From positions 132,577 to 196,576 of the forward strand of contig JBCCYL010000001.1 in assembly GCA_039189765.1 (NCBI GenBank): 64,000 nt of DNA, in the 5' to 3' direction. Positions 4,101 to 26,984 of this stretch are shown here, piece after piece. Source of the stretch: Cyanobacteria bacterium P01_F01_bin.150 (GTDB taxonomy: Bacteria; Cyanobacteriota; Cyanobacteriia; CAKZMO01). Under the pieces are notes generated by a model, which saw only the letters and a program-made list of their open reading frames with translations, made no database searches and was not told the DNA's origin. The position numbers and the translations under genes are program-made. Each line of letters opens with the position of its first letter. The first letter of the stretch is position 1.

Positions 4101-7100
4101 ACAGTAATGCCTCTGGAGTACTGGGTGAGTTTAATCCAGACGAAGTTGTATTCACAGGCTTGGCGGCACCTCCAGGACCGGATACAGACGCGGGGGGTTT
4201 TGCTGCATTGATCAGTGAGAGCACCGCAACAATTACCCTACCGGTCTTTAAGGATGGTTTGGGAGAAGGGGTAGAGACTTACACCTTCAACATTGTGGAT
4301 GGTGAAGCCTACGATCCCGATCCGGCAGCTAGCGAAGTGACTCTTTCCATTGAAGAGACACCTCCAGTGATTTCCGTTGATTTAGTGGGCGGCGTATTTG
4401 ACGGCAGTGATTTGCTGACGCCTAATCTGGTTGAGGCTCCCGAAGCAGGCACACCCGTTTTGAGCGTTGTGGTTCAGTCTGATGCGCCTATCCCTGAAGA
4501 AGGATTGGTTGTTGATATCAATACTGATCTTGCCGATATCACTGAATTTGTTGAAGGCTCTAACTTTGTCCCCACAGCCTTTGGTGGCGAAGTCCTCGGT
4601 GCTATTTATGATGCCGACGGCAATGCAACTGGCTTGACGGTCAGAATGGATGCGTTTAATACCGTTATTAACTTTGTCGGTGGCTTAGGCCTAGAGGGCG
4701 ACGGCCCCCACGAGGTTAACTTCTCTGTGGAGCCAGGCGCAGGCTATACTCCGGCGGCTGATAGTGCTGGCATTACGGTCTATGACACGATTGACCAGGT
4801 TCCAGCGGTTACATCAGTTCCTGAAGTTGGCATCAATATTGCGGAGCAGCGTCGTCCCCTTTCCGAAGGTAGCGGTGCAATTACCGTGGACTTCACCGTT
4901 ACCGGTGACATTCCTGATGAGGGCGTTATCGTTTATGTCAGCACTGGAGAACGTGCTGGATTGGGCGATTTTGACTTGCTAAATGCAGGGGTTGTTGGCG
5001 GTACGTTCCCACCTCCCGATGGAAATGCAGGCGGCTTTTACTTCAAGATCACCGAGCCGACAGCTAGCATCACCTTGCAAGCGGCTGTGGATGATGAGAT
5101 TGAAGGGATTGAAGACGTTAACATTGCGATTCAGCCTCTATCTGGCTACACCATTGCTGATGGTGCGGGTGAAGCAACTGCACTGCTTCGCGAGGGCCGA
5201 GGCTCTGAGATTCAGATCAGCCTGGACGGGTCTCCCGATGTTCTGGTTGAGGAAGAGGGCACGGTTGCAACCGTTGAGCTGAGCTTGAGTGCTCCCCCTC
5301 CTGCGGAAGGGATAGAGGTCACGATTGATGCGGCTGAAATGATTGAGTTTGATCCTCAGACTCTAACCGTATCAGATGGTGTGATTCCGGTAAGCGCAAA
5401 TGAAGACAACACTAGCTTCACTATTCTTGTCCAGCAGCAGGACGTTAGCCTGAGCGTTGCGATCGCCAACGACGGTGAAGCAGAAGGTCTTGAAACCGCC
5501 ACCTTTAGTTTGGCAGAGGGAGAGGATTATCAAATCGATCCCGAGGCTGGGTCCAGCACCTTTACCATTGTGGATACTGCCGCTGATATTCCGGCTGCGC
5601 CTATCACTGAGAGCACCCGTAGCTCCCGTGATTCCATTGGTGACACCATTGCAGAGGCTGAATCCACTGGTTTAAGTGCTGACAACAGCCGCGTCACGGT
5701 TCAAGCCGCTATTAACGGTAACTTCTTTAATGGCGATCGGGTTCGCACCGATACCACTGAAGATGTGGATATGTATTCGGTGGAGCTATCTGCGGGTGAT
5801 GTATTGCGTCTTGATATTGATGCTCAAATCAACAGTGATGAATCTCCGGATACGGTGCTGCGGCTATTTGACGCCGATGGAAACCAGCTTGCTCAGAGCG
5901 ATGATGATTTTGCTCCCGATGAGCTGTTTGCTCCTGGTCGTCGCGATTCCTACATCGAGTTTACGGCTGAAACTGCTGGAACTTACTATGTGGGCGTCAG
6001 CAGCTTTGGTAATGGTCTCTTTGACTTCTGGACTAACGACGACGGCACGTTTGACAACGATTTCTACGATCCAAACGTAGCGGGTAGTGGTGCCGGTCGT
6101 AGCGACGGTCCATACACCCTAAATCTGTCCCTTAATGAAGCACCTAATGCAGCAGAAACTGAGATTCCTGCCAGCACGGGTGAAGGGCCAACGGTTTCTC
6201 TCTCAGCCACAGCTGCCACCTATGACAGCAGCGACAATCTGATTGCTAGCACTTTGGTTCAGTACACGCCGGAATTTAGAAACGCCTCTATTTTGACCCT
6301 GAGTCTTGATGTTGATGGTGAAATCCCTGAAGGCGGTGTTGAGACCTACATAACCACTGACGTTGACCTTTCTACCCTCTTTAGTACTAGCCAACCCTTC
6401 AGCTCAGAGGGCGTAGAAGTGCTTGGGGCAGTGTACGACGATGCAGGTGCCCCCGTTGGCTTGAAGGTGAATCTCACCACGGCAAGTGGCTTTATTAACC
6501 TCAACCTCATTGATCCTGAGGAAGCACCCACCGATGGTGAAGGGACGATTACCGTTACCCTGGAGCCTGCAGCTGGCTATACCGTGGGTGAAGGGACCTT
6601 CTCTGCCACTATCTACGACACGCTAGACGATGTACCTGATTTGCCAACGGTACCCACGGTTAGTATCTCCGTTAGTGAGACAACGTTAATTGAGTCTGAG
6701 GGCAATACTACAACCCTTACTTTTGAACTCAATGAGGCACCTCCAGCGGGTGGATTGACGATCAACGTCGACAGCGGTGTGCGTGCAGCCTTGGGTGAGT
6801 TTGACGTGTTTAATGCTGAGATTGAGGGCGGTAATTTCCCCTCCCCCAACTTCCGCGCCAGCGGTTTCTTCTTCACCATGACGGAGCAAACCGCAACTAT
6901 CACCCTAGCCGCCTTTGACGAAACCACTAATCCAGAAATCTCGGCTGAAAATGCACTAGAAGGAATTGATGAGTTTACGTTTACCGTGCAGCCAGGTGCT
7001 GGCTATGCCATTGCTCCCAATTCCAATGCGGTGACCGTAACCATCGCGGATAATCCTGACTCGGTTGTCCTGCCTGATGACGATGGTAACGACGACGGTG

Positions 7101-10100
7101 GCTCTGATGCTGGCGGTTTGACTGAGAGCGAATTTAACGACACCATTGCAGATGCGATGGACACTGGTCTTAGCTCGACGAGCCCAATCTTTAGAGTTAA
7201 TGGTGAGATTGATAACAGTCGTCAGACTCGCAACTTTGTTGATGCTACTGAGGACGTTGATATCTACGCCATCACTCTAGAGGCTGGCCAAGTGGTCATT
7301 CTAGACGTAGATGGCGGCGGTACTGGCGATGCGGGTGTAGAAGGGTCCTTGCTTGATAACATCCTGCGGGTGTTTGATGCAGATGGCAACGAAGTCGCTA
7401 TCAATGAAAATGGTGGTGCACCAGATGAAGTCTTCCAAGCTAACGGTGATGCTTATCTGGAGTTTGAAGCACCTGCGGCGGGTACCTACTATGTGGGAAT
7501 TAGCAACCTAGGTAACAACTTCTACGACCCCAACGTTCAAGCTAGCGGCAGCGGCTGGGAGTTTGAAGATCGCTTTGAGCCTGGTCCTTACAGATTTACG
7601 GCAACTCTGAAAGGGGCTGTTGCTAATGATAACGACAGCGTTAGCGGCAACGATGACACCATCGCCAACGCTCAGACTCTAGACCTAACGGCAGACAACC
7701 CCAACATCTTGGTTGAAGCGGCGTTTGAACAGCGCTATTTGGATCGTAGCAACACCGTGGATGCCACTGAAGATGTGGATATGTTTGCGGTCCAGCTACA
7801 AGCGGGTGATGTTATCACTGTCGATGCGGACTCTGTACTGGTTGACTTTGACGGCTTCCCCTCCGGCCCTGCTCCTGATATCACTATCTTTGACGCCAAT
7901 GGCGACAGAGTGGTAATTGGTCAAGATGAGAATGGTGAAGATATCGTTGCTTACTCCCGTATCGGTGGTGCTCCTGATGAGGCCTTTATTGCTGGACGCG
8001 ATGGCTATATCGAGTTCACAGCCCCTGAAACCGGCACGTACTACATCGGTGCATCCCAGTATCGTAACGATAGCTACGATGCAAACGTGGTAGGCAGTGG
8101 TTCCGGTGCGGTCTTTAGTCCTCGTTTCGGCGTTCTAGCGGGTGGTGAATACACTCTAAACATTCAGCTCAACCCCGAAGGGTTTACGGGTGACGTGTAC
8201 GAAGCATTCGACGGTACCCCTGCGGATGATGCACCTACGGTAAGTTTCACGACGACTGGTGGAACCTTTGCCCGTGGTGATGTCCTTGTCTCTGACCAGA
8301 TTATTGAGTCTGAGGATGCGGGTACGGCAATCCTTGACTTTACCTTCAATGTGGATGGTGAAATCCCTGAAGGTGGTCTAGAGGTGTTCGTCACTAGCGA
8401 CACTGACATGACTACCTACTTCGAGGGATTGTCTTCTAACCCACGGGTGGCAGTCGGTGGGGAAATCACTGGTGGTCTGTACAACACGGCAGGCGAACTG
8501 ATTGGCTTCAAGGCAGTATTAACGGCCAGCAATGCCCGGTTCCCCTACAATGCGGCCCATCGTGAAGATGATGACCCTACGGCACCAGAGACGCTGACCT
8601 TCTCCTTGGCAAGTGGTCCTGCTTACCAGGTAGATGACTCCTCTTCCTCTTCTGCGGTTACCTTCTACGACGACCTGACGCAAGTTCAGGCCAGTGGTGG
8701 CCCTGTCCCTGAAGTGGCGATCGCGGTCGATACCAACGAACTGATTGAGTCCGAAGGCACAGAATTGACGCTGACGGTGAACGTCACAGGCGACATTCCT
8801 GCCGAAGGTTTGTTGATCGCCATGGACGGTCAAGTCCCTGGCACAGAAGATTCAGCACGTGGCTTCCTGGGTGAGTTCGACGTATTCAACGCCGAAGTAA
8901 CTGGTGGTCCATTCCCATCTCCCAACGGCAGCGCCAGCGGCTTCTTCTTCCGCGTCTTTGAGAACACTGCAACGATTAAGCTACAGGTATTTGATGAGAC
9001 CACCAATGATCAGATTGCACCGGAAGATGCCCTGGAGGGTGTAGAGGACTTCACCTTCTCTGTATTGGCAAGCGATGCTTACACCATCGACGCAACCGCC
9101 AGTTCGGTAGACATCACCATCAAGGACAACCCTGATTCTGTGCCTTTGACAGATGATGGTGGCGATGGTGGCAACGGTGGTGACGGTGGTGCAACCGATG
9201 GTCCTATCACCGATAACGATGGTCGTAGCACTATTGATGACACCATTGAGACCGCTAATCCGACTGGTTTGAGTCCAAATCAGACTGAGGTTAGTATTGA
9301 AGGCTCCATTGCTGTTCGCTGGCGGAATGCGGCGGAACAACGGGCTGACAACACTGAAGACGTGGATATGTACTCCTTCGACTTGGCTGCGGGTGAAACC
9401 GTATCCATCGATGCGATGTCTGTACCGTTTGAGCTAGATGGCACCACCCAAGTGACGGCTCCTACGCTGCGAGTATTCAACGCTGCAGGTGAAGAGCTGG
9501 CCATCAGCGGTAGTGAAGTAGGTGGTCCTGTGGTAGCAGACCCCTCCCTTGAGTTCACTGCAACTGAAGCGGGTACCTACTATGTGGGTGTCTCCCAGTA
9601 TCTGAACGATAACTATGATCCAGCTGTAAATGCCAGTGGTGATGGTGTTCAGTTAGTGGATGAAGGCATTAGTCCTGGAGAATACACGCTCAATCTGTCA
9701 TTGACCACTGATCAGCCAGCGGTTCCTGTTATCAGCATCAACATTGAGCCAGACGTGCTGTCTGAGGAAGATGCCGATGATACGTTGGTTAGCGTCGGAT
9801 TTAACGTTGATGGCGAGATTCCAGAGGGTGGCCTATCGGTGCTTGTTACCGGCAGCGTCAATATCCTTGACCAGGCAGATGGCGCACGGGACATCGTGTT
9901 TGATAATGCGGTTCTTGGTGAGTTCTTCGATCCTGCTACTGGTACTTTTGAAGTCATTGTTTCCGATAACAGTGGAGCAATCATTCTGCCTATCTTGAAC
10001 GACATTATTCAGGAAGCGGATGAGGATTATACCTTCACCATCATTGAGAACGATGGGTCCATCGACTCCACCTATGCGGTCGATGCAGATGCTAGCACTG

Positions 10101-11758
10101 ATACCTTCACATTGATTGATGGTAACGGTGGCCCTGGCGTTGGACCTACGGTTGGTCTCTCACTCAGTGACACTGAGCTAACGGAAGGTGATGGATTTAC
10201 CATCAACTTTGATGTGGATGGCGAGATTCCTGCTGAAGGATTGACTATTCTGGTGGATAGCCCAACTGTCTTTGCCTTGAGCGAATTCAATATCTTTGAT
10301 GCGGATGGTAATCCTGCCTTTGAGTCCACTGGTATTGCAGGTGTACCTCTTGTTGGCGATACCGGAGCGAGCAGCTTCTTGGTAACGTTGACGGAGCCAG
10401 ATGCCAGTATTACCATCACGACCTTTGAAGATGGTCCAAACGAAGGACTAGAGGAATTCAGCTACAGCATCGTAGATGGAGAAGTTTACGAGGTATCTGC
10501 TGATGCGGGTGAAGTATCCTTCACGATTGATGATGGCGGAACGCCTGAGCCAGAGCCTCCGACGGATTCCATTGAAGTTGTAGTTACTGTCGAAAACTTA
10601 TCTCCCAATGCAGGAACGTTTATAACCCCACTTTGGGTCGGCTTCCACAACGGTGAATTTGATATTTACAATCGCGGGGAAGCGGCTACTCCAGGGTTGG
10701 AAAGCCTAGCTGAAGACGGAAGTGCCGATCTTCTATCCGCAGATTTCGTCAATAGTGGGTTTGGTGCAGTGGATGGCGTTATTATTGGCCCTGAGGGATT
10801 GGGTGGTCCAATCGACCCAGGTGAAGTGACGTCTGCAACCTTTACCCTCGATCTAACTGCTGACAATAGCCAGTTCTTTAGCTATGCATCGATGATTCTG
10901 CCATCGAATGACGCCTTTATTGCCAATGGCGACCCGATGATTCATAGCCTATTTGATGAAGAGGGTAACTTTGTTGGTGTAGATTTCATTGTTGCAGGCA
11001 GTGAGGTTCTCGATGCAGGGACCGAGGTCAATGACGAATTGGCTGAGACGACGGCATTCTTCTCTCAAGCGGCACCGAACACGGGTGCAGATGAAAATGG
11101 AGTTGTCGAACTCCATCCAGGCTTTATTGAAGGAGGTAGAATCCTAAGCGAAGATGGCAGCACGGAGGGGGCACCAGCGGCCTTTACCAATGCTGACTTT
11201 ACCGCAGAGGGCTATCAGGTTGTTCGAATCACGGTAGAGGCAGTGACGTCTGAGCCTCCTGTGCCCCCTGCGCCTAGCACCAGCATCGACTTTGAGGATG
11301 ATACTTTAGACGTTGGCGAAGTGGTCACCGACCAGTTTGACGGATTAAGCGTGTCCGTTGCAGGCGATTTGGAGGCTATGATCTTTGACACGGCTAATCC
11401 AACTGGCGGAGATTACGACCTTCGCAGTGATGATTTAGGTAAGGTCTTGATCATCTCTGAGGATGGTGACTCCACTGACCCGGATGACAATATCAGGGGT
11501 GGTAAAGTGGAGTTTGATTGGAACAGCGGAGTCAGCCTTGATAGCATTGGCTTGCTTGATATGGAAGAGTCCGGTAGCACTATCACTCTGTTTGCTACTG
11601 ATGACACGACAGTGTTGGCAACGATCGAGATTCCAACCCTCGGCGACAACAGCTACCAGAGCCTTGACCTTGGTGTTGATGGCGTGGGTAAGATGGACGT
11701 CTACTTGGCCGGTAGTGGCGCGATCACCGAAATCATTGTTAGCGATAGCAATGCGTAA
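1148..11758 (+). CDS. P1: giant acidic repeat protein (~3536 aa) with Calx-beta/Ig-like repeats, four PPC-like domains, a Spondin_N domain and the shared C-terminal domain
   Basis: Start moved to ATG 1148 because AGGAG lies at 1138-1142 and MPVVSLSTSTNFSG aligns with the P3 start. Repeats follow VSLS..E.G...F.V.G.IP.GGL...ASITL.VFDD...E..E.F.F....G..Y.V. PPC motifs are DVDMYSVEL, DVDIYAITL, DVDMFAVQL and DVDMYSFDL, each followed by a GTYY[VI]G motif. Spondin motifs (TPLWVGFHNG, SMILPSNDAF, LDAGTEVNDE) lie at ~10570-11240. Confidence 0.9.
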   Translation: MPVVSLSTSTNFSGSENALIENEGTELTLTFSLDEPAPAGGLKVYVDSDVPEILNRLNLILLAFDPSRLSNLTASQAAFTDFSNSGFTATINAGATEASVTVPVFDTNESTPDPFFPDTYDGLTTATFTLKTRDQIDSVDETSPRGNTGNDLAAIENDGVPVSDYTIGTASSTVLFVDDVSQLPSDPTPTPPPTPPPTPPSPANGYDEATSGDISDNPSNPIELDLAEGTTQLSATTGGGDQEYVTVTVPDGTQLDSITVDSYSTGDVAFIGVQEGSTFTEPLDNSADVGELLGYALFDNGDEGTDILDNIGRGDGAEGFTGPLPSGTYTFALQQLGASSDYTLDFNVSEASAPTPTPPPTPTPTPPPSGPPVVSFEAVPATISEEAPAEDRLLRLEFSVAGEIPEGGLVVLFENLFGITDQADSEAEGAAFEGLGLAPPFDQENNIIGIRLLENQAAIQLPMINDLVEETTTFDFRLLEGEGYELDPDQNATLFTITDDNGGPGVGPTIGLSVSETNLAEGDTFTVNFAVDGTIPAGGIDVLVTSDESVAGPLGQFELSNLETLQLSGVSNLRPGDDRGQSFIATITEANASITLSVFDDIIAEEPVDIPFILANGELYEVDPNAADVTLTISDEPQPVGPTVGISLDKTDAVEGDSVTLSFNVEGDIPDGGLTVLVNDTTSARTGARSLTEFDIAGVQLSDGIDGFPIAAEGDSGFFVTLTAANASITLPVIDDGADEDEALEMFTFEVIDGEAYEVSADAGSVTLNISDAAPVAPTVSLSTDVTTLIESEGTIVTFTLETSGTLPEVVLDEDGDYVSGGLPVTLQIDSAQLEWFFDFDNNSRPRTNAETGSFNEVLVLGDNSTGIAGGRLIGTLLPPDFNTVELTLTESTASFQFEVFDDVFAEANEDITFTLLGGDGYEVAADATPVTLTLQDSPDGTIDGTTPVVSLSVDSTTVAEGDALTVTFNVTGDIPDGGLLVFVDSNASGVLGEFNPDEVVFTGLAAPPGPDTDAGGFAALISESTATITLPVFKDGLGEGVETYTFNIVDGEAYDPDPAASEVTLSIEETPPVISVDLVGGVFDGSDLLTPNLVEAPEAGTPVLSVVVQSDAPIPEEGLVVDINTDLADITEFVEGSNFVPTAFGGEVLGAIYDADGNATGLTVRMDAFNTVINFVGGLGLEGDGPHEVNFSVEPGAGYTPAADSAGITVYDTIDQVPAVTSVPEVGINIAEQRRPLSEGSGAITVDFTVTGDIPDEGVIVYVSTGERAGLGDFDLLNAGVVGGTFPPPDGNAGGFYFKITEPTASITLQAAVDDEIEGIEDVNIAIQPLSGYTIADGAGEATALLREGRGSEIQISLDGSPDVLVEEEGTVATVELSLSAPPPAEGIEVTIDAAEMIEFDPQTLTVSDGVIPVSANEDNTSFTILVQQQDVSLSVAIANDGEAEGLETATFSLAEGEDYQIDPEAGSSTFTIVDTAADIPAAPITESTRSSRDSIGDTIAEAESTGLSADNSRVTVQAAINGNFFNGDRVRTDTTEDVDMYSVELSAGDVLRLDIDAQINSDESPDTVLRLFDADGNQLAQSDDDFAPDELFAPGRRDSYIEFTAETAGTYYVGVSSFGNGLFDFWTNDDGTFDNDFYDPNVAGSGAGRSDGPYTLNLSLNEAPNAAETEIPASTGEGPTVSLSATAATYDSSDNLIASTLVQYTPEFRNASILTLSLDVDGEIPEGGVETYITTDVDLSTLFSTSQPFSSEGVEVLGAVYDDAGAPVGLKVNLTTASGFINLNLIDPEEAPTDGEGTITVTLEPAAGYTVGEGTFSATIYDTLDDVPDLPTVPTVSISVSETTLIESEGNTTTLTFELNEAPPAGGLTINVDSGVRAALGEFDVFNAEIEGGNFPSPNFRASGFFFTMTEQTATITLAAFDETTNPEISAENALEGIDEFTFTVQPGAGYAIAPNSNAVTVTIADNPDSVVLPDDDGNDDGGSDAGGLTESEFNDTIADAMDTGLSSTSPIFRVNGEIDNSRQTRNFVDATEDVDIYAITLEAGQVVILDVDGGGTGDAGVEGSLLDNILRVFDADGNEVAINENGGAPDEVFQANGDAYLEFEAPAAGTYYVGISNLGNNFYDPNVQASGSGWEFEDRFEPGPYRFTATLKGAVANDNDSVSGNDDTIANAQTLDLTADNPNILVEAAFEQRYLDRSNTVDATEDVDMFAVQLQAGDVITVDADSVLVDFDGFPSGPAPDITIFDANGDRVVIGQDENGEDIVAYSRIGGAPDEAFIAGRDGYIEFTAPETGTYYIGASQYRNDSYDANVVGSGSGAVFSPRFGVLAGGEYTLNIQLNPEGFTGDVYEAFDGTPADDAPTVSFTTTGGTFARGDVLVSDQIIESEDAGTAILDFTFNVDGEIPEGGLEVFVTSDTDMTTYFEGLSSNPRVAVGGEITGGLYNTAGELIGFKAVLTASNARFPYNAAHREDDDPTAPETLTFSLASGPAYQVDDSSSSSAVTFYDDLTQVQASGGPVPEVAIAVDTNELIESEGTELTLTVNVTGDIPAEGLLIAMDGQVPGTEDSARGFLGEFDVFNAEVTGGPFPSPNGSASGFFFRVFENTATIKLQVFDETTNDQIAPEDALEGVEDFTFSVLASDAYTIDATASSVDITIKDNPDSVPLTDDGGDGGNGGDGGATDGPITDNDGRSTIDDTIETANPTGLSPNQTEVSIEGSIAVRWRNAAEQRADNTEDVDMYSFDLAAGETVSIDAMSVPFELDGTTQVTAPTLRVFNAAGEELAISGSEVGGPVVADPSLEFTATEAGTYYVGVSQYLNDNYDPAVNASGDGVQLVDEGISPGEYTLNLSLTTDQPAVPVISINIEPDVLSEEDADDTLVSVGFNVDGEIPEGGLSVLVTGSVNILDQADGARDIVFDNAVLGEFFDPATGTFEVIVSDNSGAIILPILNDIIQEADEDYTFTIIENDGSIDSTYAVDADASTDTFTLIDGNGGPGVGPTVGLSLSDTELTEGDGFTINFDVDGEIPAEGLTILVDSPTVFALSEFNIFDADGNPAFESTGIAGVPLVGDTGASSFLVTLTEPDASITITTFEDGPNEGLEEFSYSIVDGEVYEVSADAGEVSFTIDDGGTPEPEPPTDSIEVVVTVENLSPNAGTFITPLWVGFHNGEFDIYNRGEAATPGLESLAEDGSADLLSADFVNSGFGAVDGVIIGPEGLGGPIDPGEVTSATFTLDLTADNSQFFSYASMILPSNDAFIANGDPMIHSLFDEEGNFVGVDFIVAGSEVLDAGTEVNDELAETTAFFSQAAPNTGADENGVVELHPGFIEGGRILSEDGSTEGAPAAFTNADFTAEGYQVVRITVEAVTSEPPVPPAPSTSIDFEDDTLDVGEVVTDQFDGLSVSVAGDLEAMIFDTANPTGGDYDLRSDDLGKVLIISEDGDSTDPDDNIRGGKVEFDWNSGVSLDSIGLLDMEESGSTITLFATDDTTVLATIEIPTLGDNSYQSLDLGVDGVGKMDVYLAGSGAITEIIVSDSNA

Positions 11759-11898
11759 TTGAGCTGCATTCCATTTCAGCTCACTGTGCTTTGCAGATGG
11801 AACAGACTTGACTGGGGTTATCTAAATGTCCTTTGCATTAAATAGCCTGAGTCAGACTGAACAACCCTCTGCCTAGCATCGTAATAACCACATTAGCT

Positions 11899-11945
11899 GG
11901 GACGTTTTTGCAGGGGGTGCCCCTTGCAGAAACGTCCCTATTTTA
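11899..11945 (+). terminator. Stem-loop, likely the terminator of P1
   Basis: GGGACGTTTTTGCAGGGGG-TG-CCCCTTGCAGAAACGTCCC followed by TATTTT. Confidence 0.65.
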
Positions 11946-12334
11946 ATGATAGGTCTACGGCTATAACCCTTTCACTTGTGAAAAATTTGCACAAATGATA
12001 CCAGTCGTCACACCCATAAGTATTGTTACGTAGGTTAAAATAGTATCCAAGAATTAGAAATCAGCTTTCTCAGTTGGAGCTCAGCAAACGCTAAGGTGGT
12101 TTCTAATATATATATGCAAAACTGTGGTACCGGCGATCGCTCCTTCCCTTTACAAATGGCCATTAGACCTGATACCTACAAATGGCTGGCGATCGCTCCC
12201 ATACCCAAAGTCTTTTGTTCTTGGCAATTGTTTCAAGAGCAAGACTCAGGCATGTACTCCTAAGATTTTTATTCTCTCTCAGTATTTTTACCAGCTTCAT
12301 AGTCTCTTTAAATAAAAAGCATCATCTTGCCAAT

Positions 12335-12389
12335 TCAGTGATGCTACTATATTCAGTGCAACACTATTGATAACGTTATTTCTCAGATA
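12335..12389 (+). promoter_or_regulatory. Putative extended -10 promoter (TGCTACTAT) and weak Fur-like site upstream of P2
   Basis: TCAGTGATGCTACTAT is identical to 31507-31522. It is followed by AGTGCAACACTATTGATAACGTTATTTCTCAG, which carries Fur-like half sites with non-canonical spacing. Confidence 0.45.
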
Positions 12390-12644
12390 GATTTTGATAT
12401 TCGTCAATCTCTTATAAACGTTCTCCTAGATCCCAGCCGAACCTAGTGGCTACCCCCCTGGCAGAATAAACTTTAGTCTGCCGGATTAATTGGCCGTAAA
12501 GCGATTGGCAAGTGGGAGACGAAAAGCTGCTAGTTTGTACTGCGCCAGCATGGGTTTATATGTATGGCGCTAGGCTGATTCGTCAAGCCGTATTGAAGTG
12601 GAAAAGTGTTTTTGCAATCTTGCATATTGGAGCAATAGCAGTAG

Positions 12645-15600
12645 ATGACAATAATTAATCTGAGCGCAAGTCCTACAACCCTAATTGAAGACCAGGGGAC
12701 GCGAGTTACCTTTCAAATCTCTTTGAGTGAGGCACCTCCTACTAATGGTTTACAGGTTAACTTTGGGACAGGTAAGGACAGAGGATTAGCGGACTTTTTG
12801 GTACTTCCTGCGGATGGTGCAGTATATGACGGAGCTTTCCCAGTTGCGTCTTTTCCCGATTTAAGTGGGGTTACTCTTCTGATTACCTCACAAAATCCGA
12901 CTATTTCATTCAACATTTTTGATGATGCTGATCTTCCGGCTGATGATCCAAATGCAACCGTCAATGATGATGTTGGAGAAGAGCAGACTACCTTCTCTAT
13001 TTTGCCTGGTGATGGCTACACCGTTGGTGATAATGGCTCCGTAACGCTAACGCTTCTAGATACGGAAGGTGCTGAAGGCGGTGAAGGTGCTGAAGGCGGT
13101 GAAGGTGCTGAAGGCGGTGAAGGTGCTGAAGGCGGTGAAGGTGCTGAAGGCGGTGAAGGTGCTGAAGGCGGCGAAGGTGCTGAAGGCGGCGAAGGTGCTG
13201 AAGGCGGTGAAGGTGCTGAAGGCGGTGAAGGTGCTGAAGGCGGCGAAGGTGCTGAAGGCGGCGAAGGTGCTGAAGGCGGTGAAGGCGGTGAAGGTGCTGA
13301 AGGCGGTGAAGGTGCTGAAGGCGGTGAAGGTGCTGAAGGCGGCGACGTCACCGTTAGCTTTAGTACGACCTCTGGTACCCTCAGCGAAGTCGATGGCCCT
13401 GCACTGGTACTCAACTTCAGTGTGGATGGCGAAATCCCTGAAGGTGGCATCACAGTCAACCTGGAAGGAGATACTGCCGAGATTCTCCAGCAGTTCTTGG
13501 CTCCAGATGGCGATGGTGCAGTCCAAACTCGAGTTACCGAAGAAGGCACTACCCTTTATCGCTTTGACACGTCGTTTGTCCCTGGCGCGGGAATTGAAGG
13601 CGGAACACTGGATGTGTTCTCCCTGGAAGATGGCGACCCAGCAGAAGACAACTCTAACCCAGCAGCAGCAGGGACTGGCTTCTTAAGCAACTTTAGCTTC
13701 ACCATCACCGAATCGACAGCTAGTATTACCTTGCCAGTGTCTGATGACATTGTCCAAGAGGCGGACCAAACTTTCAGCTACACACTTGTAGCAGGGGATG
13801 GTTACACCGTAGACCCAACTCAAAACTCAGGTACATTCACCGTAACGGATGGGGTCACTCCTGCCACATCCCCAACCGTTGGTGTTGTAGTTAGTGAAAC
13901 CAACCTAGTCGAAGAAGAGCAAACCAGAACAACGCTTACCTTCACCACAGCGGGAGACATCCCTGCTGAAGGACTGTTGGTTCAGTTGCAAGGACCAACC
14001 AGGGCCGTCGCTGAATTTGACGTTAATGGCACGAATAATACCCAGCCTCGTTTGCCGGAAGATGAATTAGAGGTAACTGGTCCGGTTGTCACCGGCGGTA
14101 ATATCGCTGGTACCGATGAAGTAGCCGGTTCGGTATTCTTCCGAATTGCAGAACCCACAGCATCTATAGATATCGCTGTCTTTGATGATGATGTGATTGA
14201 AGGCACTGAAAATCTGACCTTCACCCTAGTTGATGGCGAAGCCTATGAAGTTGACTCTGCGGCCAGCTCCATTGCAGTGACTATTACTGATAGTGATGGT
14301 TTTGAAGGTTACCAGCCTGGTGATGCAGCTAGATTAGTAACTCCCCCTGCTCCTGCTCCAACCAATCCTGGAGAACAAGCTAATGCTGACTTTGTAGATC
14401 AGCTTGAAGGTGAGGAACTTCTTGACGAACTACAAGACGGTGGTTATGTAATCTACTTCCGTCATGCCATGACCGAGCGCGACTTCGCGGATCAAGTCAC
14501 AGCAGATGTTAACGATTTTTCCACTCAGAGGGTACTGAGTGAGTTTGGTATACAACAATCCCTCGCTATCGGTGAAGGTTTTGAACTAGCTGAAATTCCT
14601 GTTGGCTCTGTAACCACTAGTGATTATGGCCGTGCTGTTAAGACTGCTGCGATCGCATTTGGTGAGTACCAGAAAGACTCTGCGCTGAACTTCCTGCCAT
14701 TTGAAGACTACACCGATGCACAAATCGAAGAGATGCGGGCTAATGTACTGCCTTTCTTGACTACAGAACCAGAAGCTGGAGAAAACAGCGTCATCGTTGG
14801 TCACGATGATCTCTTTGAGGCTGGAACGGGCATTTATCCTGATCCACAGGGTATTGCTTATATTCTTGACCCAGACGGTATGGGTGGTTTCGAAATTGTT
14901 GCTAACCTACTGCCTGAGGAATGGGTTGAGCTAGCTGAAGGCGGCGAAGGTGCTGAAGGTGGCGAAGGTGCTGAAGGTGGCGAAGGTGCTGAAGGTGGCG
15001 AAGGTGCTGAAGGTGGCGAAGGTGCTGAAGGCGGCGAAGGTGCTGAAGGCGGCGAAGGTGCTGAAGGCGGCGAAGGTGCTGAAGGTGGCGAAGGTGCTGA
15101 AGGTGGCGAAGGTGCTGAAGGTGGCGAAGGTGCTGAAGGTGGCGAAGGTGCTGAAGGTGGCGAAGGTGCTGAAGGTGGCGAAGGTGCTGAAGGCGGCGAA
15201 GGTGCTGAAGGCGGTGAAGGTGCTGAAGGCGGTGAAGGTGCTGAAGGCGGCGAAGGTGCTGAAGGTGGCGAAGGTGCTGAAGGCGGCGAAGGTGCTGAAG
15301 GCGGCGAAGGTGCTGAAGGCGGCGAAGGTGCTGAAGGCGGTGAAGGTGCTGAAGGCGGTGAAGGTGCTGAAGGCGGCGAAGGTGCTGAAGGCATCACCGT
15401 AGACATTAGCAGCAGTCCAAATGTTTTAGTTGAGGAAGATGGCACAAACCTAACTGTATCCTTTGAACTAAGTGAAGCGGCTCCAGCGGGTGGTCTACGG
15501 GTGTTCGTGGATAGCGATATTCCAGGAATCGTCAGCCGATTGAATCTACCTTTCTTTGCCTTTAACCCTCAGGTGGAGAATGTCGATCCGTCATCCTTCG

Positions 15601-18600
15601 TCACATCCTTTGATAACTCTGGATTTGCCCTCACTATTGATGAAGGATCAACTGGAGCATCTTTTACTATTCCAGTCTTCGATAATGCTGAGCCTGCTGA
15701 TATAGCCCCTGAAGTGTTCGATGGGCTAGTTGAAGCTACGTTCACGCTGCAAACAGAGGTCAGCACTGAAGATCAGACTGATGTTGGTACTCTAGGTGAT
15801 TACAGTGTTGGCGATGGAGTAACAGCCGTTGTTTTCGCAGACACAGCTAGTCAGCTTGAAGGCGCTGAAGGCGGTGAAGGTGCTGAAGGCGGTGAAGGTG
15901 CTGAAGGCGGTGAAGGTGCTGAAGGCGGTGAAGGCGGTGAAGGTGCTGAAGGCGGTGAAGGTGCTGAAGGCGGCGAAGGTGCTGAAGGCGGCGAAGGTGC
16001 TGAAGGCGGCGAAGGTGCTGAAGGCGGCGAAGGTGCTGAAGGCGGCGACGTCACCGTTAGCTTTAGTACTACCTCTGGTACCCTCAGCGAAGTAGATGGT
16101 CCCGCACTGGTATTGAACTTCAGTGTGGATGGCGAAATCCCTGAAGATGGCGTTACAGTCAACATAGAAGGGGATACTGTAGAGATTCTTCAACAGTTCT
16201 TGGCTCCAGATGGCGATGGTGCAGTGCAAACTCGGGTTACCGATCAGGGCACTACCCTTTATCGTTTTGACACTTCCTTCGGTCCTGATGCGGGACTTGA
16301 AGGTGGAACGCTGGATGTATTCTCCCTGGAAGATGGCGACCCAGCGGAAGACAACTCCGACCCAGCGGCAGCCGGAACAGGTTTCTTGAGCAACTTTAGC
16401 TTCACCATCACCGAATCGACAGCTAGCATTACCTTGCCAGTGTCTGATGATATTGTTCAAGAGGCAGACCAGACCTTTAGCTACACACTTGTAGAAGGGG
16501 ATGGTTACACCGTAGACCCAACTCAAAACTCAGGTACATTCACCGTCACCGATGGAGTCACTCCTGCTACATCACCAACCGTTGGTGTTACAGTCAGTGA
16601 AGCCAACCTAGTCGAAAACGAGCAAACCAGAACAACACTTACCTTCACTACTGAGGGGGATATCCCTGCTGAAGGGCTGCTGGTTCAGCTACAAGGATCG
16701 GCCAGAGCCGTTGCTGAGTTTGACGTGAATGGCACGAATAATACCCAACCTCGTTTGCCGGAAGATGAGTTAGAGGTAACAGGTCCTATTGTCACAGGCG
16801 GTAACATTGCTGGTACCGATGAGGTAGCCGGTTCGGTATTCTTCCGAATTACAGAACCTACAGCAACCATAGATATCGCTGTCTTCGATGATATTGTGGC
16901 TGAAGGCACTGAGAACTTGACCTTCAACCTAGTTGATGGCGAAGCCTATGAGGTTGACTCTGCAGCTAGCTCCATTGATGTGACTATCGTTGATGACAAC
17001 GGCGACCTTGACGACGTCACCGTTAGCTTTAGCACCACTTCTGGCATCCTTAGTGAAGTCGATGGCCCTGCCTTGGTGCTGAACTTCAGTGTGGATGGCG
17101 AAATCCCTGACGGTGGTGTCACAGTCAACCTGGAAGGGGACACTGCAGAAATTCTGCAGCAGTTCTTGGCTCCGGATGGCGATGGTGCGGTTCAAACTCG
17201 GGTTACCGATGAAGGCACTACCCTTTATCGCTTTGATACCTCCTTTGGCCCTGATGCGGGACTTGTAGGTGGAACACTGGACGTATTCTCCCTAGAAGAT
17301 GGTGACCCAGCGGAAGACAACTCTGATCCAGCGGCAGCCGGAACAGGCTTCTTGAGCAACTTTAGCTTCACTATCACTGAGGCAACAGCCAGCATTACCT
17401 TGCCAGTGTCGGATGACATTGTTCAAGAGGCGGACCAAACCTTTAGCTACACACTCGTAGCAGGGGATGGTTACATCGTAGACCCAACTCAAAATTCAGG
17501 GACATTCACCGTCACTGATGGGGTCACTCCTGCCACATCGCCAACCGTCGGTGTTGCAATCAGTGAAACCAACTTAGTTGAAGACGAGCAAACCAGAACA
17601 ACGATTACCTTCACCACAGAAGGAGACATCCCTGCCGAAGGACTGTTGGTTCAGCTGCAGGGTTCTGCCAGAGCCATCGCTGAGTTTGATGTGAATGGCA
17701 CAAATAACACCCAGCCTCGTTTGCCAGAAGGCGAATTAGAGGTAACGGGTCCTGTTGTCACAGGCGGTAATATCGCTGGTACTGACGAAGTAGCCGGTTC
17801 AGTGTTCTTCCGAATTACAGAATCTACAGCATCAATAGACGTCGCTGTCTTTGATGATGATGTGGAAGAAGGCACTGAGAATCTGACCTTTACACTAGTG
17901 GATGGTGAAGCCTATGAGGTTGACTCTGCGGCCAGCTCCATTGCAGTGACTATCGAGGATGGTGATAGCTTTGAGGGTTACCAGCCTGGTGACGCTGCTA
18001 GATTAGTCACTCCTCCTGCTCCTGCTCCAACAAATGAGGGAGAGCAAGCTAATGCTGACTTTGTCGATGTATTAGAAGGTGAAGAACTCCTGGATGAGCT
18101 ACAAGACGGTGGGTACGTAATCTACTTCCGTCATGCCATGACAGAGCGCGACTTCGCGGATCAGGTCACAGCAAATGTCGATGACTTCTCTACTCAAAGG
18201 GTTGTCAGTGAATTCGGAGTCCAGCAATCCCTGGCCATTGGCGAAGGATTTGAGGCAGCCGAGATTCCCGTTGGTTCTGTAACCACCAGTGACTATGCTC
18301 GTGCAATTGAAACTGCGGCGATCGCGTTCGGTGAGTATCAGAAGGATTCTGCACTGAACTTCCTGCCGTTTGAGGACTACACTGATGCGCAAATCGAAGA
18401 GATGCGGGCTAATGTGCTGCCTTTCTTAACGGCGGAACCAGAAGCCGGTACAAACAGCGTCATCGTTGGTCACGACGATCTCTTTGAAGCTGGAACGGGC
18501 ATCTATCCTGATCCTCAGGGTATTGCTTACGTTCTTGACCCCGATGGTGACGGTGGTTTTGAGATTGTTGCCAACCTATTGCCTGAAGAGTGGATTGAAC

Positions 18601-19112: not shown

Positions 19113-19144
19113 GATAGCTAACTAGTACCGCGTCAGCTTTATTT

Positions 19145-19180
19145 TGAGGGAAAATCCCGTAGGGATTTTCCCCTCATTTA
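19145..19180 (+). terminator. Stem-loop terminator after P2
   Basis: TGAGGGAAAATCCC-GTA-GGGATTTTCCCCTCA followed by TTTATTT. Confidence 0.7.
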
Positions 19181-19202
19181 TTTCCTGACAGAGTACTAGC
19201 AT

Positions 19203-19221
19203 ATTGCAACTATTTGCCAGT
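19203..19221. promoter_or_regulatory. Putative Fur box upstream of the dioxygenase gene
   Basis: ATTGCAACTATTTGCCAGT resembles the boxes at 20418 and 31539 and lies about 180 nt before a piuC-like gene. Confidence 0.5.
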
Positions 19222-19400
19222 ACTCTGGCTAGCTGCAATGGCTACCAATCAGAGGGGCTGATCAACCTTCTAATATGGAGGTCTTGATCAGTCTCTTTAT
19301 TTTTTTATAAAGCGATCGCCTTTTTACCTATTAAGGTGACAAATTGAACGACACTATAATGTAGGACTATTATTTACAACCACTCTATATGTGAAGAAAT

Positions 19401-20063
19401 ATGATTGTTGAAATTCCTAATGTTTTTTCTCAAAATGAAGTAAAAGATATTGTTGATAAACTTTCTGCCTCAGAATTTATTGATGGAAAGAAAACGGCGG
19501 GTTGGAATGCTCGGGCTGTTAAGAATAATGAGCAGCTCAAAGCCAGTGATCCTGCTGCTGCTGCTCTCAAGGAGATGGTGAAAACGAAGCTCAACAAAAA
19601 CTTTCGTTTTCAGTCAACGGTTCGCCCAAAGAATATCCATACTCTGCTGTTTAGTCGGTACGAAGTCGGCATGTCCTATGGGCGACATAATGACAATGCA
19701 ATGATGTCGGGGAAATGGCGAACTGATGTTTCCTTCACCATCTGGCTAACTGCCCCTGAAACCTACAAGGGAGGAGACTTAGTTATTGAAGGCCCAAGTC
19801 GTGAATCATCCTATCGTTTAGCCGCAGGGTCAGCCATTACCTATCCATCCTCAACTCTCCACCGTGTTGATCCAATTACTGAGGGAAGTCGATGGGCGAT
19901 CGTAGGCTGGGTCCAGAGTTGGATAAGAGACCCGGCCCATCGCGAAATTCTATATGATTTGGATACAGCTCGTCGCTCCATTTTTGATACCCATGGCAAA
20001 AATAAAGAATTTGATTTGGTGTCTAAGAGCTTAACTAATCTACTGCGTAGCTGGATGGAGTAA
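19401..20063 (+). CDS. piuC: Fe(II)/2-oxoglutarate-dependent PKHD-type hydroxylase (PiuC/YbiX family)
   Basis: 220 aa with DGKKTAG...VKNNEQL, YGRHNDNA (HxD), RTDVSFT, Y.GG.L, YPSSTLHRV (distal His), SRWAIVGWVQSWIRD and a C-terminal NLLRSW. Confidence 0.92.
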   Translation: MIVEIPNVFSQNEVKDIVDKLSASEFIDGKKTAGWNARAVKNNEQLKASDPAAAALKEMVKTKLNKNFRFQSTVRPKNIHTLLFSRYEVGMSYGRHNDNAMMSGKWRTDVSFTIWLTAPETYKGGDLVIEGPSRESSYRLAAGSAITYPSSTLHRVDPITEGSRWAIVGWVQSWIRDPAHREILYDLDTARRSIFDTHGKNKEFDLVSKSLTNLLRSWME

Positions 20064-20094
20064 AACTAAACCAAAACGCAACTTAATCCCTGAT

Positions 20095-20126
20095 CCCTGA
20101 GCTTTTTATCAGCTTTGGGGTTTTTT
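20095..20126 (+). terminator. Intrinsic terminator after piuC
   Basis: CCCTGAGCT-loop-AGCTTTGGGG followed by a T6 run. Confidence 0.6.
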
Positions 20127-20212
20127 AATATGGCCGTAAGCACTGATGCAAAATTTGCACAAGTGATACTGCCATCTTCTTAAGGCATCGAAATCACTGA
20201 ATGAGTAATATT

Positions 20213-20293
20213 TAGGCAGGTGGTGTGGGCGCGTTGGCTTGCTTACCTCCGCTTTGCCCATAGTGACCTAACCACCGCCTAAAGTTGATCCCC
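20213..20293 (+). repeat. Intergenic hairpin repeat, copy A (expanded loop)
   Basis: Arms TAGGCAGGTGGTGTGGGC...GCCCA...ACCACCGCCTA plus tail AAGTTGATCCCC. Confidence 0.55.
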
Positions 20294-20417
20294 GTTACAT
20301 TAAAAGAGTGGAAACAATAGATAAGCTTCCAAGTAGATTAAGTAATATCACCAATGATCACTATAGGAAAAAAAGAGTGTTCAATCTTTATGGGCAATGT
20401 TAATATACTAACGAGCT

Positions 20418-20436
20418 ATTGCAATATAGTCTCAAT
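20418..20436. promoter_or_regulatory. Putative Fur box upstream of P3
   Basis: ATTGCAATATAGTCTCAAT is a near-palindromic 19-mer of the ATTG(C/A)(A/G)A..T(C/T)TCAAT type, about 480 nt before the start. Confidence 0.65.
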
Positions 20437-26800: not shown

Positions 26801-26934
26801 GATCCTAGACCTTGTTCAAGCTTTCTAGGAAGATTAGAATGTCAGGATGAAGAGCATTTTAGGGTCTTCTAGCCCCTTTCCTAATATTCTCTTTACCTCT
26901 TGTAAGTTTGACGACTGAGTCAGGAAGATTTCAA

Positions 26935-26970: not shown

Positions 26971-26984
26971 AAAGTAAAAACCTT

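What the first reader, a model, noticed from the sequence alone, without database searches (positions are those of the whole stretch)
11283..11758. Invariant ~150-aa C-terminal domain on all nine proteins: a candidate export or anchoring tag
Seen: [ILY]DF[ED]..GDV[VI]T[DN]Q..L.I....AMIFD[ST]xNPTGGDxDL....LG.[VI]LIISEDGDSxxPDDN..GG...FDW......G.LD[IM]EE.G....L......IP...[DN]NS.Q.......V.[KR].[DN]V.L.GSGA[IL]T[ED]I occurs exactly once per protein and always at the end. Copies lie at about 11283, 18633, 26318, 30695, 38248, 43928, 46826, 54350 and 57850. None of the nine has an N-terminal hydrophobic signal or canonical RTX nonapeptide arrays. Inference: the domain is a non-RTX C-terminal secretion signal (type I-like), or a dockerin- or S-layer-like attachment module. 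The acidic loop EDGDSADPDDN may bind Ca.
Basis: partly seen in the sequence, partly recalled or inferred. Interest (0 to 1): 0.85.

Follow-up and report, generated by a model that had tools for sequence, protein, structure and literature searches.

The report
Calcium-type beta-sandwich end module on secreted proteins
The shared tail of these nine giant cyanobacterial proteins is a real folded domain shaped like a sugar-binding module; related bacteria carry it at any position in secreted proteins, so it is probably a binding part rather than a dedicated export tag.

Summary
All nine large + strand ORFs end in one copy of a ~157-aa block (53-74% identity, 60 invariant columns).

It is a domain, not a linear tag. 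AlphaFold2 gives an all-beta jelly roll (pLDDT 91.4). Its structural matches are carbohydrate-binding modules, DUF4465/BtuJ and a putative CBM from Aeromonas salmonicida. Pfam, NCBIfam and PDB sequence searches do not cover it.

The family is large: 2868 cluster representatives. Among the best 150, 51 are C-terminal, 14 N-terminal and 85 internal, and 65 carry two or more copies. Some also carry T9SS tails or RTX repeats.

Locally the picture is different. In this genome 29 of 33 copies end their protein. The hosts lack signal peptides, are almost cysteine-free and hyper-acidic, and never carry the RTX-type tail found on 57 other ORFs.

I read it as a Ca-binding, CBM-like passenger module of type I secretion (T1SS) substrates. 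Its terminal copies may also supply the export signal (inference). Interest is moderate.

The parts
11285..11755 (+). Domain copy 1: the last 157 codons of ORF 1049-11758 (likely ATG start at 1148).
   Evidence: Profile i-E 9.7e-86, 1 residue before the stop. Motif start. This copy was the AF2 query: pLDDT 91.4, first strand at residue 17 of 11231-11755.
18636..19109 (+). Domain copy 2, at the end of ORF 12645-19112.
   Evidence: i-E 6.3e-76, tail 1.
26321..26797 (+). Domain copy 3, at the end of ORF 20915-26800.
   Evidence: i-E 4.8e-89, tail 1.
30698..31183 (+). Domain copy 4, at the end of ORF 27134-31186 (a beta-lactamase-family enzyme).
   Evidence: i-E 1.7e-86; Pfam Beta-lactamase at residues 37-346.
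38251..38727 (+). Domain copy 5, at the end of ORF 32284-38730.
   Evidence: i-E 2.7e-89.
43931..44407 (+). Domain copy 6, at the end of ORF 38909-44410.
   Evidence: i-E 5.2e-90.
46830..47312 (+). Domain copy 7, at the end of ORF 44514-47315 (cadherin-like plus beta-lactamase-family domains).
   Evidence: i-E 1.9e-85; Pfam results.
54356..54838 (+). Domain copy 8, at the end of ORF 47834-54841 (PPC plus GDSL lipase).
   Evidence: i-E 3.1e-87; Pfam results.
57852..58337 (+). Domain copy 9, at the end of ORF 54924-58340 (PPC).
   Evidence: i-E 7.5e-87; Pfam results.
1049..58340 (+). Cluster of the nine host genes, all on the + strand. The products have no Cys from the first Met, K+R of 0.9-3.5% and D+E of 17-21%.

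Best explanation
The block is an autonomous, all-beta jelly-roll domain of about 155 residues. It has the fold of carbohydrate-binding modules (galactose-binding-like). Two loops carry nine conserved acidic residues (around FD..NPTGGD.DL and SEDGDS.DPDDN) and most likely hold Ca2+.

It belongs to a large family that Pfam-A and NCBIfam do not model. Members occur in secreted or surface proteins of marine cyanobacteria, Rhodobacteraceae, Planctomycetes, Verrucomicrobia and T9SS-bearing bacteria. They sit at either end, internally or in tandem, and next to genuine sorting signals.

As a family it is therefore a passenger module, not an export tag. Its most likely role is Ca-dependent binding to a glycan or surface.

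In this cyanobacterium and its family it became the terminal module of adhesin-like giants and exoenzymes. These hosts look like type I secretion substrates. Because they have neither a signal peptide nor the usual RTX-type tail, the last strands of the terminal copies probably also act as the C-terminal recognition element. [quoted passage not shown]

Shown here: that the domain is real, its predicted fold, its distribution, its variable position, and the composition of its hosts. Inferred: Ca2+ binding, ligand binding, the T1SS route, and the signal role.
For: Fold
- AF2 on a 50-sequence alignment gives pLDDT 91.4 and pTM 0.83, with strands only.
- Foldseek against PDB finds 62 matches at E<=1e-3. 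The 50 rows shown are mostly CBM or discoidin-type jelly rolls (Ape1 module, CBM4, 6, 11, 22, 29, 32, 61).
- VIA-align's top match is 9q5u_A, an Aeromonas salmonicida putative CBM (Z 11.8, rmsd 3.2, 133 residues). DUF4465/BtuJ follow at Z 11.0, 10.4 and 10.1.

Conserved acidic residues
- Across 50 diverse members, D53, D61, D63, D85, D86 and D110 are invariant and E77, D78 and D80 are at least 90% conserved. All lie in loops of the model.

Passenger behaviour
- Among the top 150 representatives, 51 are terminal, 14 N-terminal and 85 internal, and 65 carry two or more copies.
- Of 91 representatives scanned, 3 carry Por_Secre_tail and 5 carry RTX repeats. LysM, VWA, choice-of-anchor I and Hint_2 also occur.
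- Own-genome C89 has the domain at residues 23-177, then five RTX stretches, then an RTX-type tail. Its domain copy nests inside a 61-tip clade in which the other 60 copies are terminal.
- In relatives, non-terminal copies are followed by Gly/Asp-rich RTX-like sequence (by eye; L071, L080) or an RTX-type tail (L045).

T1SS context
- Counted from the first Met, 23 of the 33 host ORFs have no Cys. Overall Cys is 0.046% against 0.896% in other ORFs of at least 300 aa. K+R is mostly 1-4%.
- Paralogues on C176 and C141 have RTX repeats roughly 100 residues upstream of the domain.
- HlyB-type ABC genes (C2, C46) and a HlyD gene (C7) score over the curated cut-offs.
- Acidic, Cys-free proteins with an uncleaved C-terminal signal of about 60 residues are the described traits of T1SS substrates (PMC3034196, passages read).

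Exclusivity with the usual tail
- A tail profile finds 57 ORFs at E<=0.01 (16 of them the training set). None carries a terminal copy of the domain.

Precedent
Against: - No sequence-level link to any CBM family. Pfam found nothing over the domain in 5 window copies or in the 50 alignment members at E<=5. The only trace is a sub-threshold CBM_6 hit on P0092 (E 9.4e-4; 19.9 bits against a cut-off of 28.9).
- Fold matches form a continuum. Z falls smoothly from 11.8 to 8, Foldseek TM-scores are 0.32-0.48, and this fold is very common. A shared fold does not show a shared function.
- The conserved residues are acidic loop residues and glycines, not the aromatic platform typical of many CBMs.
- The ends of terminal copies do not resemble the genome's RTX-type tails. 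0 of 29 terminal copies in the genome and 0 of 109 terminal homologues score.
- No T1SS gene is linked. Both HlyB-type ABCs occur in 17 of 17 genomes of the family, whereas the domain was found in only 11 of 17, own genome included.
- Absence of a signal peptide rests on a crude rule of my own.
- Nothing has been tested experimentally.
Confidence: 0.55

Rival explanations
1. The whole domain is a dedicated, non-RTX type I secretion signal, and export is its primary function wherever it occurs.
For: - 29 of 33 copies in this genome end within 16 residues of the stop.
- About 33 of 40 loci fetched from relatives do the same.
- The hosts lack signal peptides and the RTX-type tail.
- RTX repeats sit just upstream of the domain in the C176 and C141 paralogues.
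Against: - 99 of the 150 best representatives carry it away from the C-terminus, many in tandem.
- It co-occurs with T9SS tails and Sec-type N-termini.
- It also co-occurs with separate RTX repeats plus a tail (C89).
- It is a well-packed 155-residue fold, unlike the described signals of about 60 residues.
- No transporter is linked.
Confidence: 0.1
2. A pure retention or anchoring module. It binds the cell's own sheath, exopolysaccharide or lipopolysaccharide and so keeps enzymes and adhesins on the producer. It plays no part in export, and the export determinant lies elsewhere or is unknown.
For: - CBM-like fold.
- Its partners are largely nutrient-scavenging exoenzymes that benefit from staying at the surface. 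About 23 of the 120 listed homologues carry phosphoesterase-type families: alkaline phosphatase, PhoD, GDPD, 5'-nucleotidase, metallophosphoesterase and Exo_endo_phos.
- The domain's position is variable.
Against: - It leaves unexplained how 29 signal-less proteins without the usual tail leave the cell.
- For a T1SS protein whose N-terminus stays at the cell, the C-terminus is the distal end. That would favour binding to foreign targets. This point is inference from RTX adhesin architecture.
Confidence: 0.2
3. A Ca2+-triggered folding unit with no ligand, functionally comparable to an RTX block. It would stay unfolded in the low-Ca cytoplasm and fold outside, driving or capping export.
For: - What is conserved across phyla is mainly acidic loop residues and glycines.
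- The nine window hosts have no RTX repeats.
- Hosts are hyper-acidic.
- The folding role of RTX repeats is described in PMC3034196.
Against: - The domain also occurs in Sec/T9SS proteins that fold in the periplasm.
- It occurs alongside real RTX blocks.
- Tandem arrays of up to six copies look more like multivalent binding.
Confidence: 0.12
4. No function of its own. The shared tail is a by-product of recent duplication or gene conversion among tandem paralogues.
For: The genes are tandem paralogues.
Against: - Nucleotide identity is only 58-83%, with differences concentrated at third codon positions.
- Copies sit on 19 contigs of this genome.
- There are 2868 cluster representatives elsewhere.
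Confidence: 0.01

Closest known systems
Carbohydrate-binding modules at the tip of T1SS-secreted RTX adhesins (AhLap CBM of Aeromonas hydrophila, PMC12077191; PDB 9q5u, Aeromonas salmonicida putative CBM with split domain)
   Same: - Beta-sandwich module in giant, signal-less, acidic surface proteins.
- 9q5u_A is the best structural match: Z 11.8, rmsd 3.2, 133 aligned residues.
- It lies at the C-terminal, distal end of the protein.
   Different: - Only 8% identity, with no sequence-profile link.
- Those CBMs project from a split domain and are followed by an RTX block and the secretion signal. Here the module is the last thing in the protein.
- That 9q5u comes from an RTX adhesin is my recollection. 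The entry title says only 'putative carbohydrate binding module and split domain'.
DUF4465 (PF14717), including BtuJ, the vitamin B12-binding proteins of Bacteroides
   Same: - Similar jelly roll: Z 11.0, 10.4, 10.1 and 8.1 for four entries, with 139-145 aligned residues.
- One of the two nearest named clusters in the ESM Atlas (score 0.78, lead only; a PEP-CTERM cluster scores 0.84).
   Different: - The PF14717 model finds nothing in this genome despite its 33 domain copies.
- It finds nothing in 50 family members at E<=5.
- Those proteins are lipoproteins of about 220-260 residues (chain lengths; 'lipoproteins' is recalled).
CBM families 6/35, 32, 4, 22 and 29 (galactose-binding-like fold)
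   Same: Fold class. Foldseek E-values run from 2e-5 to 9e-4. The [module]-[GDSL/SGNH] architecture of several homologues parallels Ape1.
   Different: - TM-scores are only 0.32-0.48 and identity 7-17%.
- There is no Pfam match.
- The two long acidic loops are specific to this family.
RTX block plus C-terminal T1SS signal
   Same: Position at the very end of acidic, Cys-free, signal-less exoproteins, with a presumed Ca2+ dependence.
   Different: - No nonapeptide repeats in the nine window proteins.
- A jelly roll, not a beta-roll.
- No similarity to this genome's 57 RTX-type tails.

Membership tests
T1SS C-terminal secretion signal (RTX type) | Located at the extreme C-terminus of the substrate | tested here: inconclusive
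   Met in the window (9 of 9) and in 29 of 33 copies in the genome. Not met by 99 of the 150 best representatives.
T1SS C-terminal secretion signal (RTX type) | Preceded by Ca-binding nonapeptide (RTX) repeats | tested here: not met
   0 of the 9 window proteins hit HemolysinCabind at E<=1e-3. The GGxGxD matches are (GGD)n linkers. Two paralogues (C176, C141) do have RTX repeats upstream.
T1SS C-terminal secretion signal (RTX type) | Sequence resemblance to the tails of this genome's RTX-type proteins | tested here: not met
   A tail profile finds 57 ORFs at E<=0.01, none with a terminal copy of the domain. 0 of 109 terminal homologues score.
T1SS C-terminal secretion signal (RTX type) | Substrate lacks an N-terminal signal peptide and is acidic and Cys-poor | tested here: met
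   Hydrophilic N-termini. 0 Cys in 23 of 33 hosts, and K+R mostly 1-4%. The signal-peptide test is a crude rule.
T1SS C-terminal secretion signal (RTX type) | Genetic linkage to, or co-occurrence with, an ABC/MFP/OMP set | tested here: not met
   The adjacent ABC pair is ABC_membrane_2/SbmA-BacA type. 1 of 80 loci elsewhere has a HlyB/HlyD-like gene in its flank. The HlyB paralogues are in 17 of 17 genomes of the family, whether or not the domain is present. TolC was not searched.
T1SS C-terminal secretion signal (RTX type) | Necessary and sufficient for export | not testable with these tools
   Needs reporter fusions and deletions.
Carbohydrate-binding module, galactose-binding-like beta-sandwich | Beta jelly-roll fold | tested here: met
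   AF2 pLDDT 91.4. 62 Foldseek matches at E<=1e-3, mostly CBMs among the 50 rows shown. VIA Z up to 11.8. This rests on a predicted model only.
Carbohydrate-binding module, galactose-binding-like beta-sandwich | Sequence membership of a curated CBM family | tested here: not met
   No Pfam CBM family over the domain. One sub-threshold CBM_6 hit on P0092. CAZy was not available.
Carbohydrate-binding module, galactose-binding-like beta-sandwich | Binds a carbohydrate | not testable with these tools
   Needs glycan arrays, ITC or pull-downs.
Carbohydrate-binding module, galactose-binding-like beta-sandwich | Structural Ca2+ site | tested here: inconclusive
   Nine conserved acidic residues sit in two loops.
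DUF4465 (PF14717) | Match to the family HMM | tested here: not met
   No match in the own genome, while the control rang in Bacteroides thetaiotaomicron. None among 50 members at E<=5. The similarity is at fold level only.
Dockerin | Module of about 70 residues with duplicated Ca-binding loop-helix motifs (definition recalled) | tested here: not met
   The model has about 155 residues, strands only and no helix. No dockerin hit in Pfam.
SLH (S-layer homology) anchor | Match to the SLH profile | tested here: not met
   No SLH hit in Pfam at E<=10 or E<=5.
T9SS C-terminal domain (Por_Secre_tail) | Match to PF18962 at the C-terminus | tested here: not met
   No hit on the window copies. In homologues PF18962 is a separate domain downstream of this one.

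The most novel reading that the evidence does not exclude
In one cyanobacterial lineage, a folded CBM-like Ca-binding domain has taken over the role of the type I secretion signal. Its last strands would be what a HlyB-type transporter recognises; the orphan C2 ABC and the C7 HlyD are possible candidates. One module would then both target and arm at least 29 proteins in this genome, and many exoenzymes (phosphatases, nucleotidases, lipases) in related marine cyanobacteria. That would be a new, portable, non-RTX class of T1SS targeting domain.
Probability: 0.33. Interest if true: 0.75.

Novelty: new member of a known kind. Interest (0 to 1): 0.48.

Why it matters
- The family has thousands of members and no Pfam or NCBIfam model. 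It marks a large part of the secretome of some marine cyanobacteria and Rhodobacteraceae, so a name and a fold for it would improve annotation of many 'hypothetical' exoproteins, including phosphorus-scavenging enzymes.
- How cyanobacteria export the many exoproteins that lack signal peptides is poorly understood. This genome offers a clean natural contrast: 57 proteins with the usual RTX-type tail against 29 that end in this domain, plus one (C89) with the domain at the front and the usual tail at the back. That makes the question directly testable.
- If the terminal domain proves sufficient for export, it would also be a candidate secretion and display tag for cyanobacterial biotechnology.

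Tried and rejected
- Searches used out-of-frame coordinates and returned errors. They were repeated in frame.
- Sequence libraries gave nothing for the domain: Pfam (one sub-threshold hit, E 0.0076, on 1 of 5 copies), NCBIfam (0 of 5 at E<=10), and PDB sequences (0 hits, then 3 hits at E>=0.16).
- The first AF2 run, with only the nine window copies, was unusable (pLDDT 57.7). The 50-sequence alignment fixed this.
- The ESM Atlas gave only unnamed clusters at 0.88. The nearest named ones, a PEP-CTERM cluster (0.84) and DUF4465 (0.78), are leads only.
- A dedicated exporter was not found. The neighbouring ABC pair is importer-like. Clustering of neighbours within 8 kb of all copies in the genome found only AraC-type regulators and other giant proteins recurring. 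Both HlyB paralogues are universal in the family. 1 of 80 foreign loci has a T1SS gene nearby, though many of those contigs are short.
- The RTX-type tail profile, built from 16 own-genome tails, recognised only 4 of 139 non-terminal homologues. It is therefore too lineage-specific to classify foreign tails.
- By eye, terminal copies often end in an acidic residue followed by small or hydrophobic residues, or in ...TFA/NFA/NFF. I could not turn this into a test and give it no weight.
- By eye, two foreign homologues (L131, L148) end in a hydrophobic stretch plus a basic tail, like PEP-CTERM or similar anchors. This was not tested with a profile.
- Literature searches found no description of this domain. 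Three full-text searches are weak evidence that it is not in print. No supplements were read.
- Complex prediction, sequencing-run look-ups and read laying were not used.

Full report
1. THE OBSERVATION

The window holds nine large ORFs on the + strand. Translating their ends shows the same block of roughly 157 residues immediately before each stop codon.

- The last 175 residues align with 53-74% identity to the first copy and 60 invariant columns.
- I searched a profile of that alignment against all 22,555 stop-to-stop frames of at least 80 aa in the genome. It hits each window ORF exactly once, at i-E 6e-76 to 5e-90, ending one residue before the stop.
The quoted 11283 is out of frame, which explains the stops.
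- Copies differ mostly at third codon positions (0.21/0.17/0.53 differences per site) and share 58-83% nucleotide identity. So this is a selected protein feature, not a recent duplication.
N-termini are hydrophilic, with at most 36 residues between the upstream stop and the first Met. Pfam finds no RTX repeats in the nine, and the few GGxGxD strings are (GGD)n linkers.

2. WHAT THE BLOCK IS

Sequence libraries do not know it.
- Pfam: no family over its cut-off; one sub-threshold hit on 1 of 5 copies.
- NCBIfam: none at E<=10.
- PDB sequences: none, then three chance-level hits at E>=0.16.
- Pfam on all 50 members of a broader alignment at E<=5: no recurrent family over the domain.

The structure prediction needed a deeper alignment. 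With only the nine window copies AlphaFold2 failed (pLDDT 57.7). I added paralogues from the genome and short homologues to make 50 sequences. The model then reached pLDDT 91.4 and pTM 0.83, with nine strands and no helix.

The fold matches carbohydrate-binding modules.
- Foldseek against PDB gave 62 matches at E<=1e-3. The 50 rows shown are mostly carbohydrate-binding modules or discoidin-type jelly rolls: the Ape1 module and CBM4, 6, 11, 22, 29, 32 and 61.
- The Foldseek-independent search put an Aeromonas salmonicida 'putative carbohydrate binding module and split domain' first (9q5u_A: Z 11.8, rmsd 3.2, 133 residues). Three DUF4465/BtuJ entries followed (Z 11.0-10.1), then many CBMs at Z 8-10.
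- The scores decline smoothly and the fold is common. I therefore claim the fold class, not a family.
- DUF4465 membership was tested and not met. PF14717 finds nothing in this genome, while its control rings in Bacteroides thetaiotaomicron.

Across the 50 diverse members, the invariant or nearly invariant residues are mainly acidic residues and glycines in two loops (D53, D61, D63, E77, D78, D80, D85, D86, D110). This fits Ca2+ sites but does not prove them.

3. HOW THE FAMILY BEHAVES ELSEWHERE

- An exhaustive profile search found 2868 cluster representatives at E<=1e-3 and 1711 at E<=1e-10.
- In the best 150, the domain is terminal (25 residues or fewer to the end) in 51, N-terminal in 14 and internal in 85. 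Sixty-five proteins have two or more core copies, up to six.
- Profile positions 63-168 can recur alone. The N-terminal part (13-63) is often separated from this core by an insert of about 20 residues.
- I gave Pfam 91 of the 150: those of 900 aa or less, taken in id order up to the residue cap. No family covered the domain itself, apart from a sub-threshold CBM_6 hit on P0092. Partner domains included Por_Secre_tail at the C-terminus (3 proteins), RTX repeats (5), Hint_2 (2), LysM with a subtilase, VWA, choice-of-anchor I, SdrD_B, DUF7507, GDSL lipase and others.
- A word-indexed search named the sources: cyanobacteria (Elainellaceae, Leptolyngbyaceae, Nodosilinea, Pleurocapsa) and Rhodobacteraceae. 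About 23 of the 120 listed proteins carry phosphoesterase-type enzymes.
- A scan of species genomes confirmed 458 of 582 candidate stretches. The best 80 include Adonisia, Halomicronema, Waterburya, Okeania, Crocosphaera, many Rhodobacteraceae, Planctomycetes, Verrucomicrobia, a Caldilineales genome and a gammaproteobacterium.
- In those loci, 31 of the 72 domain-bearing ORFs with a known end are terminal. By record title, 29 of the 31 are cyanobacterial.
- On a FastTree of 281 domain copies, the label 'terminal' changes 18 times, against 85-109 in 100 shuffles. Relatives share labels, so this shows only that position is inherited within lineages.

4. THE LOCAL PICTURE

The genome has 33 ORFs with the domain. 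Twenty-nine end within 16 residues of it, one of them an 83-aa fragment. Relatives carry fewer copies:
- 10 of 16 other genomes of the same family have 1-9 matches each.
- 0 of 24 genomes from 24 other cyanobacterial families have a match at E<=1e-10.

I fetched 40 loci from these relatives. About 33 are terminal. The non-terminal ones are followed by Gly/Asp-rich RTX-like sequence (by eye; L071, L080) or by an RTX-type tail (L045).

The host proteins are unusual in composition. Counted from the first Met, 23 of the 33 have no cysteine. Overall Cys is 0.046% against 0.896% in other long ORFs. K+R is mostly 1-4% and D+E 15-22%. A review of RTX proteins describes S-layer and lipase T1SS substrates as acidic and Cys-free, with an uncleaved C-terminal signal of about 60 residues (PMC3034196, passages read).

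T1SS parts exist in the genome.
- Two HlyB-type ABC genes score over the TIGR01846 cut-off (C2, C46), and one HlyD gene scores over the TIGR01843 cut-off (C7).
- The C46 ABC sits in an operon with a HlyD gene, next to an RTX protein.

Among 59 acidic, Cys-poor ORFs I noticed a second kind of ending, the familiar RTX-type tail. A profile of 16 such tails finds 57 ORFs at E<=0.01, training set included. None is a terminal-domain protein. The two endings are therefore mutually exclusive in this genome.

One natural exception is informative. The ORF on C89 has the domain at residues 23-177, then five RTX stretches, then an RTX-type tail. Its domain copy sits inside the otherwise terminal clade of 61 tips. 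Two paralogues (C176, C141) have RTX repeats roughly 100 residues upstream of a terminal domain.

5. LINKAGE TESTS

All were negative.
- The ABC pair that runs into the window start is ABC_membrane_2/SbmA-BacA type, beside a TonB-dependent receptor.
- The only recurrent neighbours of domain genes in this genome are AraC-type regulators (11 on 7 contigs) and other giant proteins.
- Both HlyB paralogues occur in 17 of 17 genomes of the family, so they do not track the domain.
- Only 1 of 80 foreign loci has a HlyB/HlyD-like gene within the flank held. Many of those contigs are short.

6. READING

The family is a passenger module with a CBM-like, probably Ca-binding fold, used by proteins that leave the cell by several routes. 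CBMs at the distal, C-terminal end of T1SS adhesins are an established arrangement (PMC12077191, abstract and passages read).

In this lineage the hosts look like T1SS substrates that have lost, or never had, the usual tail. The one thing they share is this domain. That makes it the best candidate to carry their export determinant as well. This is an argument by elimination. I found no sequence resemblance to known tails and no linked transporter.

I give the composite reading 0.55 and the stronger 'new class of T1SS targeting domain' reading 0.33.

7. NOVELTY AND SCORE

This is a new, unmodelled family of a well-known fold class and functional kind, with a lineage-specific twist that can be tested. 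Three literature searches found no description of it. For most papers I saw listings and abstracts only, plus passages of two papers. I read no supplements. Interest: 0.48.

Noticed in passing
window 1049-58340 (all nine ORFs): Extreme composition. From the first Met there is no cysteine, and K+R is only 0.9-3.5% against D+E of 17-21% (for example K+R is 0.9% of the 1833-residue product of ORF 38909-44410). The depletion of basic residues goes well beyond ordinary acidity.
   Followed up: partly
window 1148, 20915, 44514 (and C141, C224, C269); window 54924 (and C202, C224, C269); window 32284 and 38909: Subsets of the proteins share conserved N-terminal modules that begin right at the Met: types MVQVSLSTSTNF..., MLQVSLFTGP.YLIE... 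and MYSESVSGDITNNPNDPL... A fourth type on C103 and C176 starts M.S.PL.L.EIESNDT. By analogy these could be retention modules of T1SS adhesins. Not tested.
   Followed up: no
G000 C89:10381-11907 (L031): A 509-aa paralogue with the domain at the N-terminus, five RTX stretches and an RTX-type tail. It is a ready-made natural control for the terminal copies.
   Followed up: yes
G000 genome-wide; two lie just upstream of the window at C1:124294-125310 and C1:125335-126756 (L082:11298-13760): 57 ORFs end in an RTX-type tail (pattern roughly G.NTLI....LA.L.GV.A..L...DF.), so this genome has a very large presumptive T1SS substrate set.
   Followed up: partly
G000 C224:5159-6184 and 10173-11207, C269, C202, C176, C103 and others: AraC-family regulator genes of about 345 aa (HTH_18 confirmed on one) sit immediately beside many domain-bearing genes: 11 copies on 7 contigs. 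None lies in the window.
   Followed up: partly
window 19401-20063 (+): A PKHD-type 2OG-Fe(II) oxygenase gene lies inside the cluster, between the second and third giant genes. A possible protein hydroxylase for its neighbours. Untested.
   Followed up: no
window 32284 and 38909 ORFs, residues ~151-190; 20915 ORF ~348-390; 1049 ORF ~2707: (GGD)n low-complexity linkers that mimic the RTX consensus in a regex search but are not nonapeptide repeats.
   Followed up: yes
window 58465-59436 (-), 59676-60326, 60456-63885: Downstream of the cluster lie a short ORF with one weak RTX hit on the minus strand, a Uma2-family gene, and an AAA ATPase followed by an S8 subtilase.
   Followed up: no
G000 C2:163822-166464 and C7:19125-20363: An orphan HlyB-type ABC gene with a C39-like domain and an orphan HlyD gene, neither next to a substrate or to each other. 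They might form a second T1SS.
   Followed up: partly
L148 and L131 (loci from other genomes): By eye, homologues in a gammaproteobacterial and a Caldilineales genome end in a hydrophobic stretch plus a basic tail, like PEP-CTERM-type anchors. This echoes the PEP-CTERM cluster named by the ESM Atlas.
   Followed up: no
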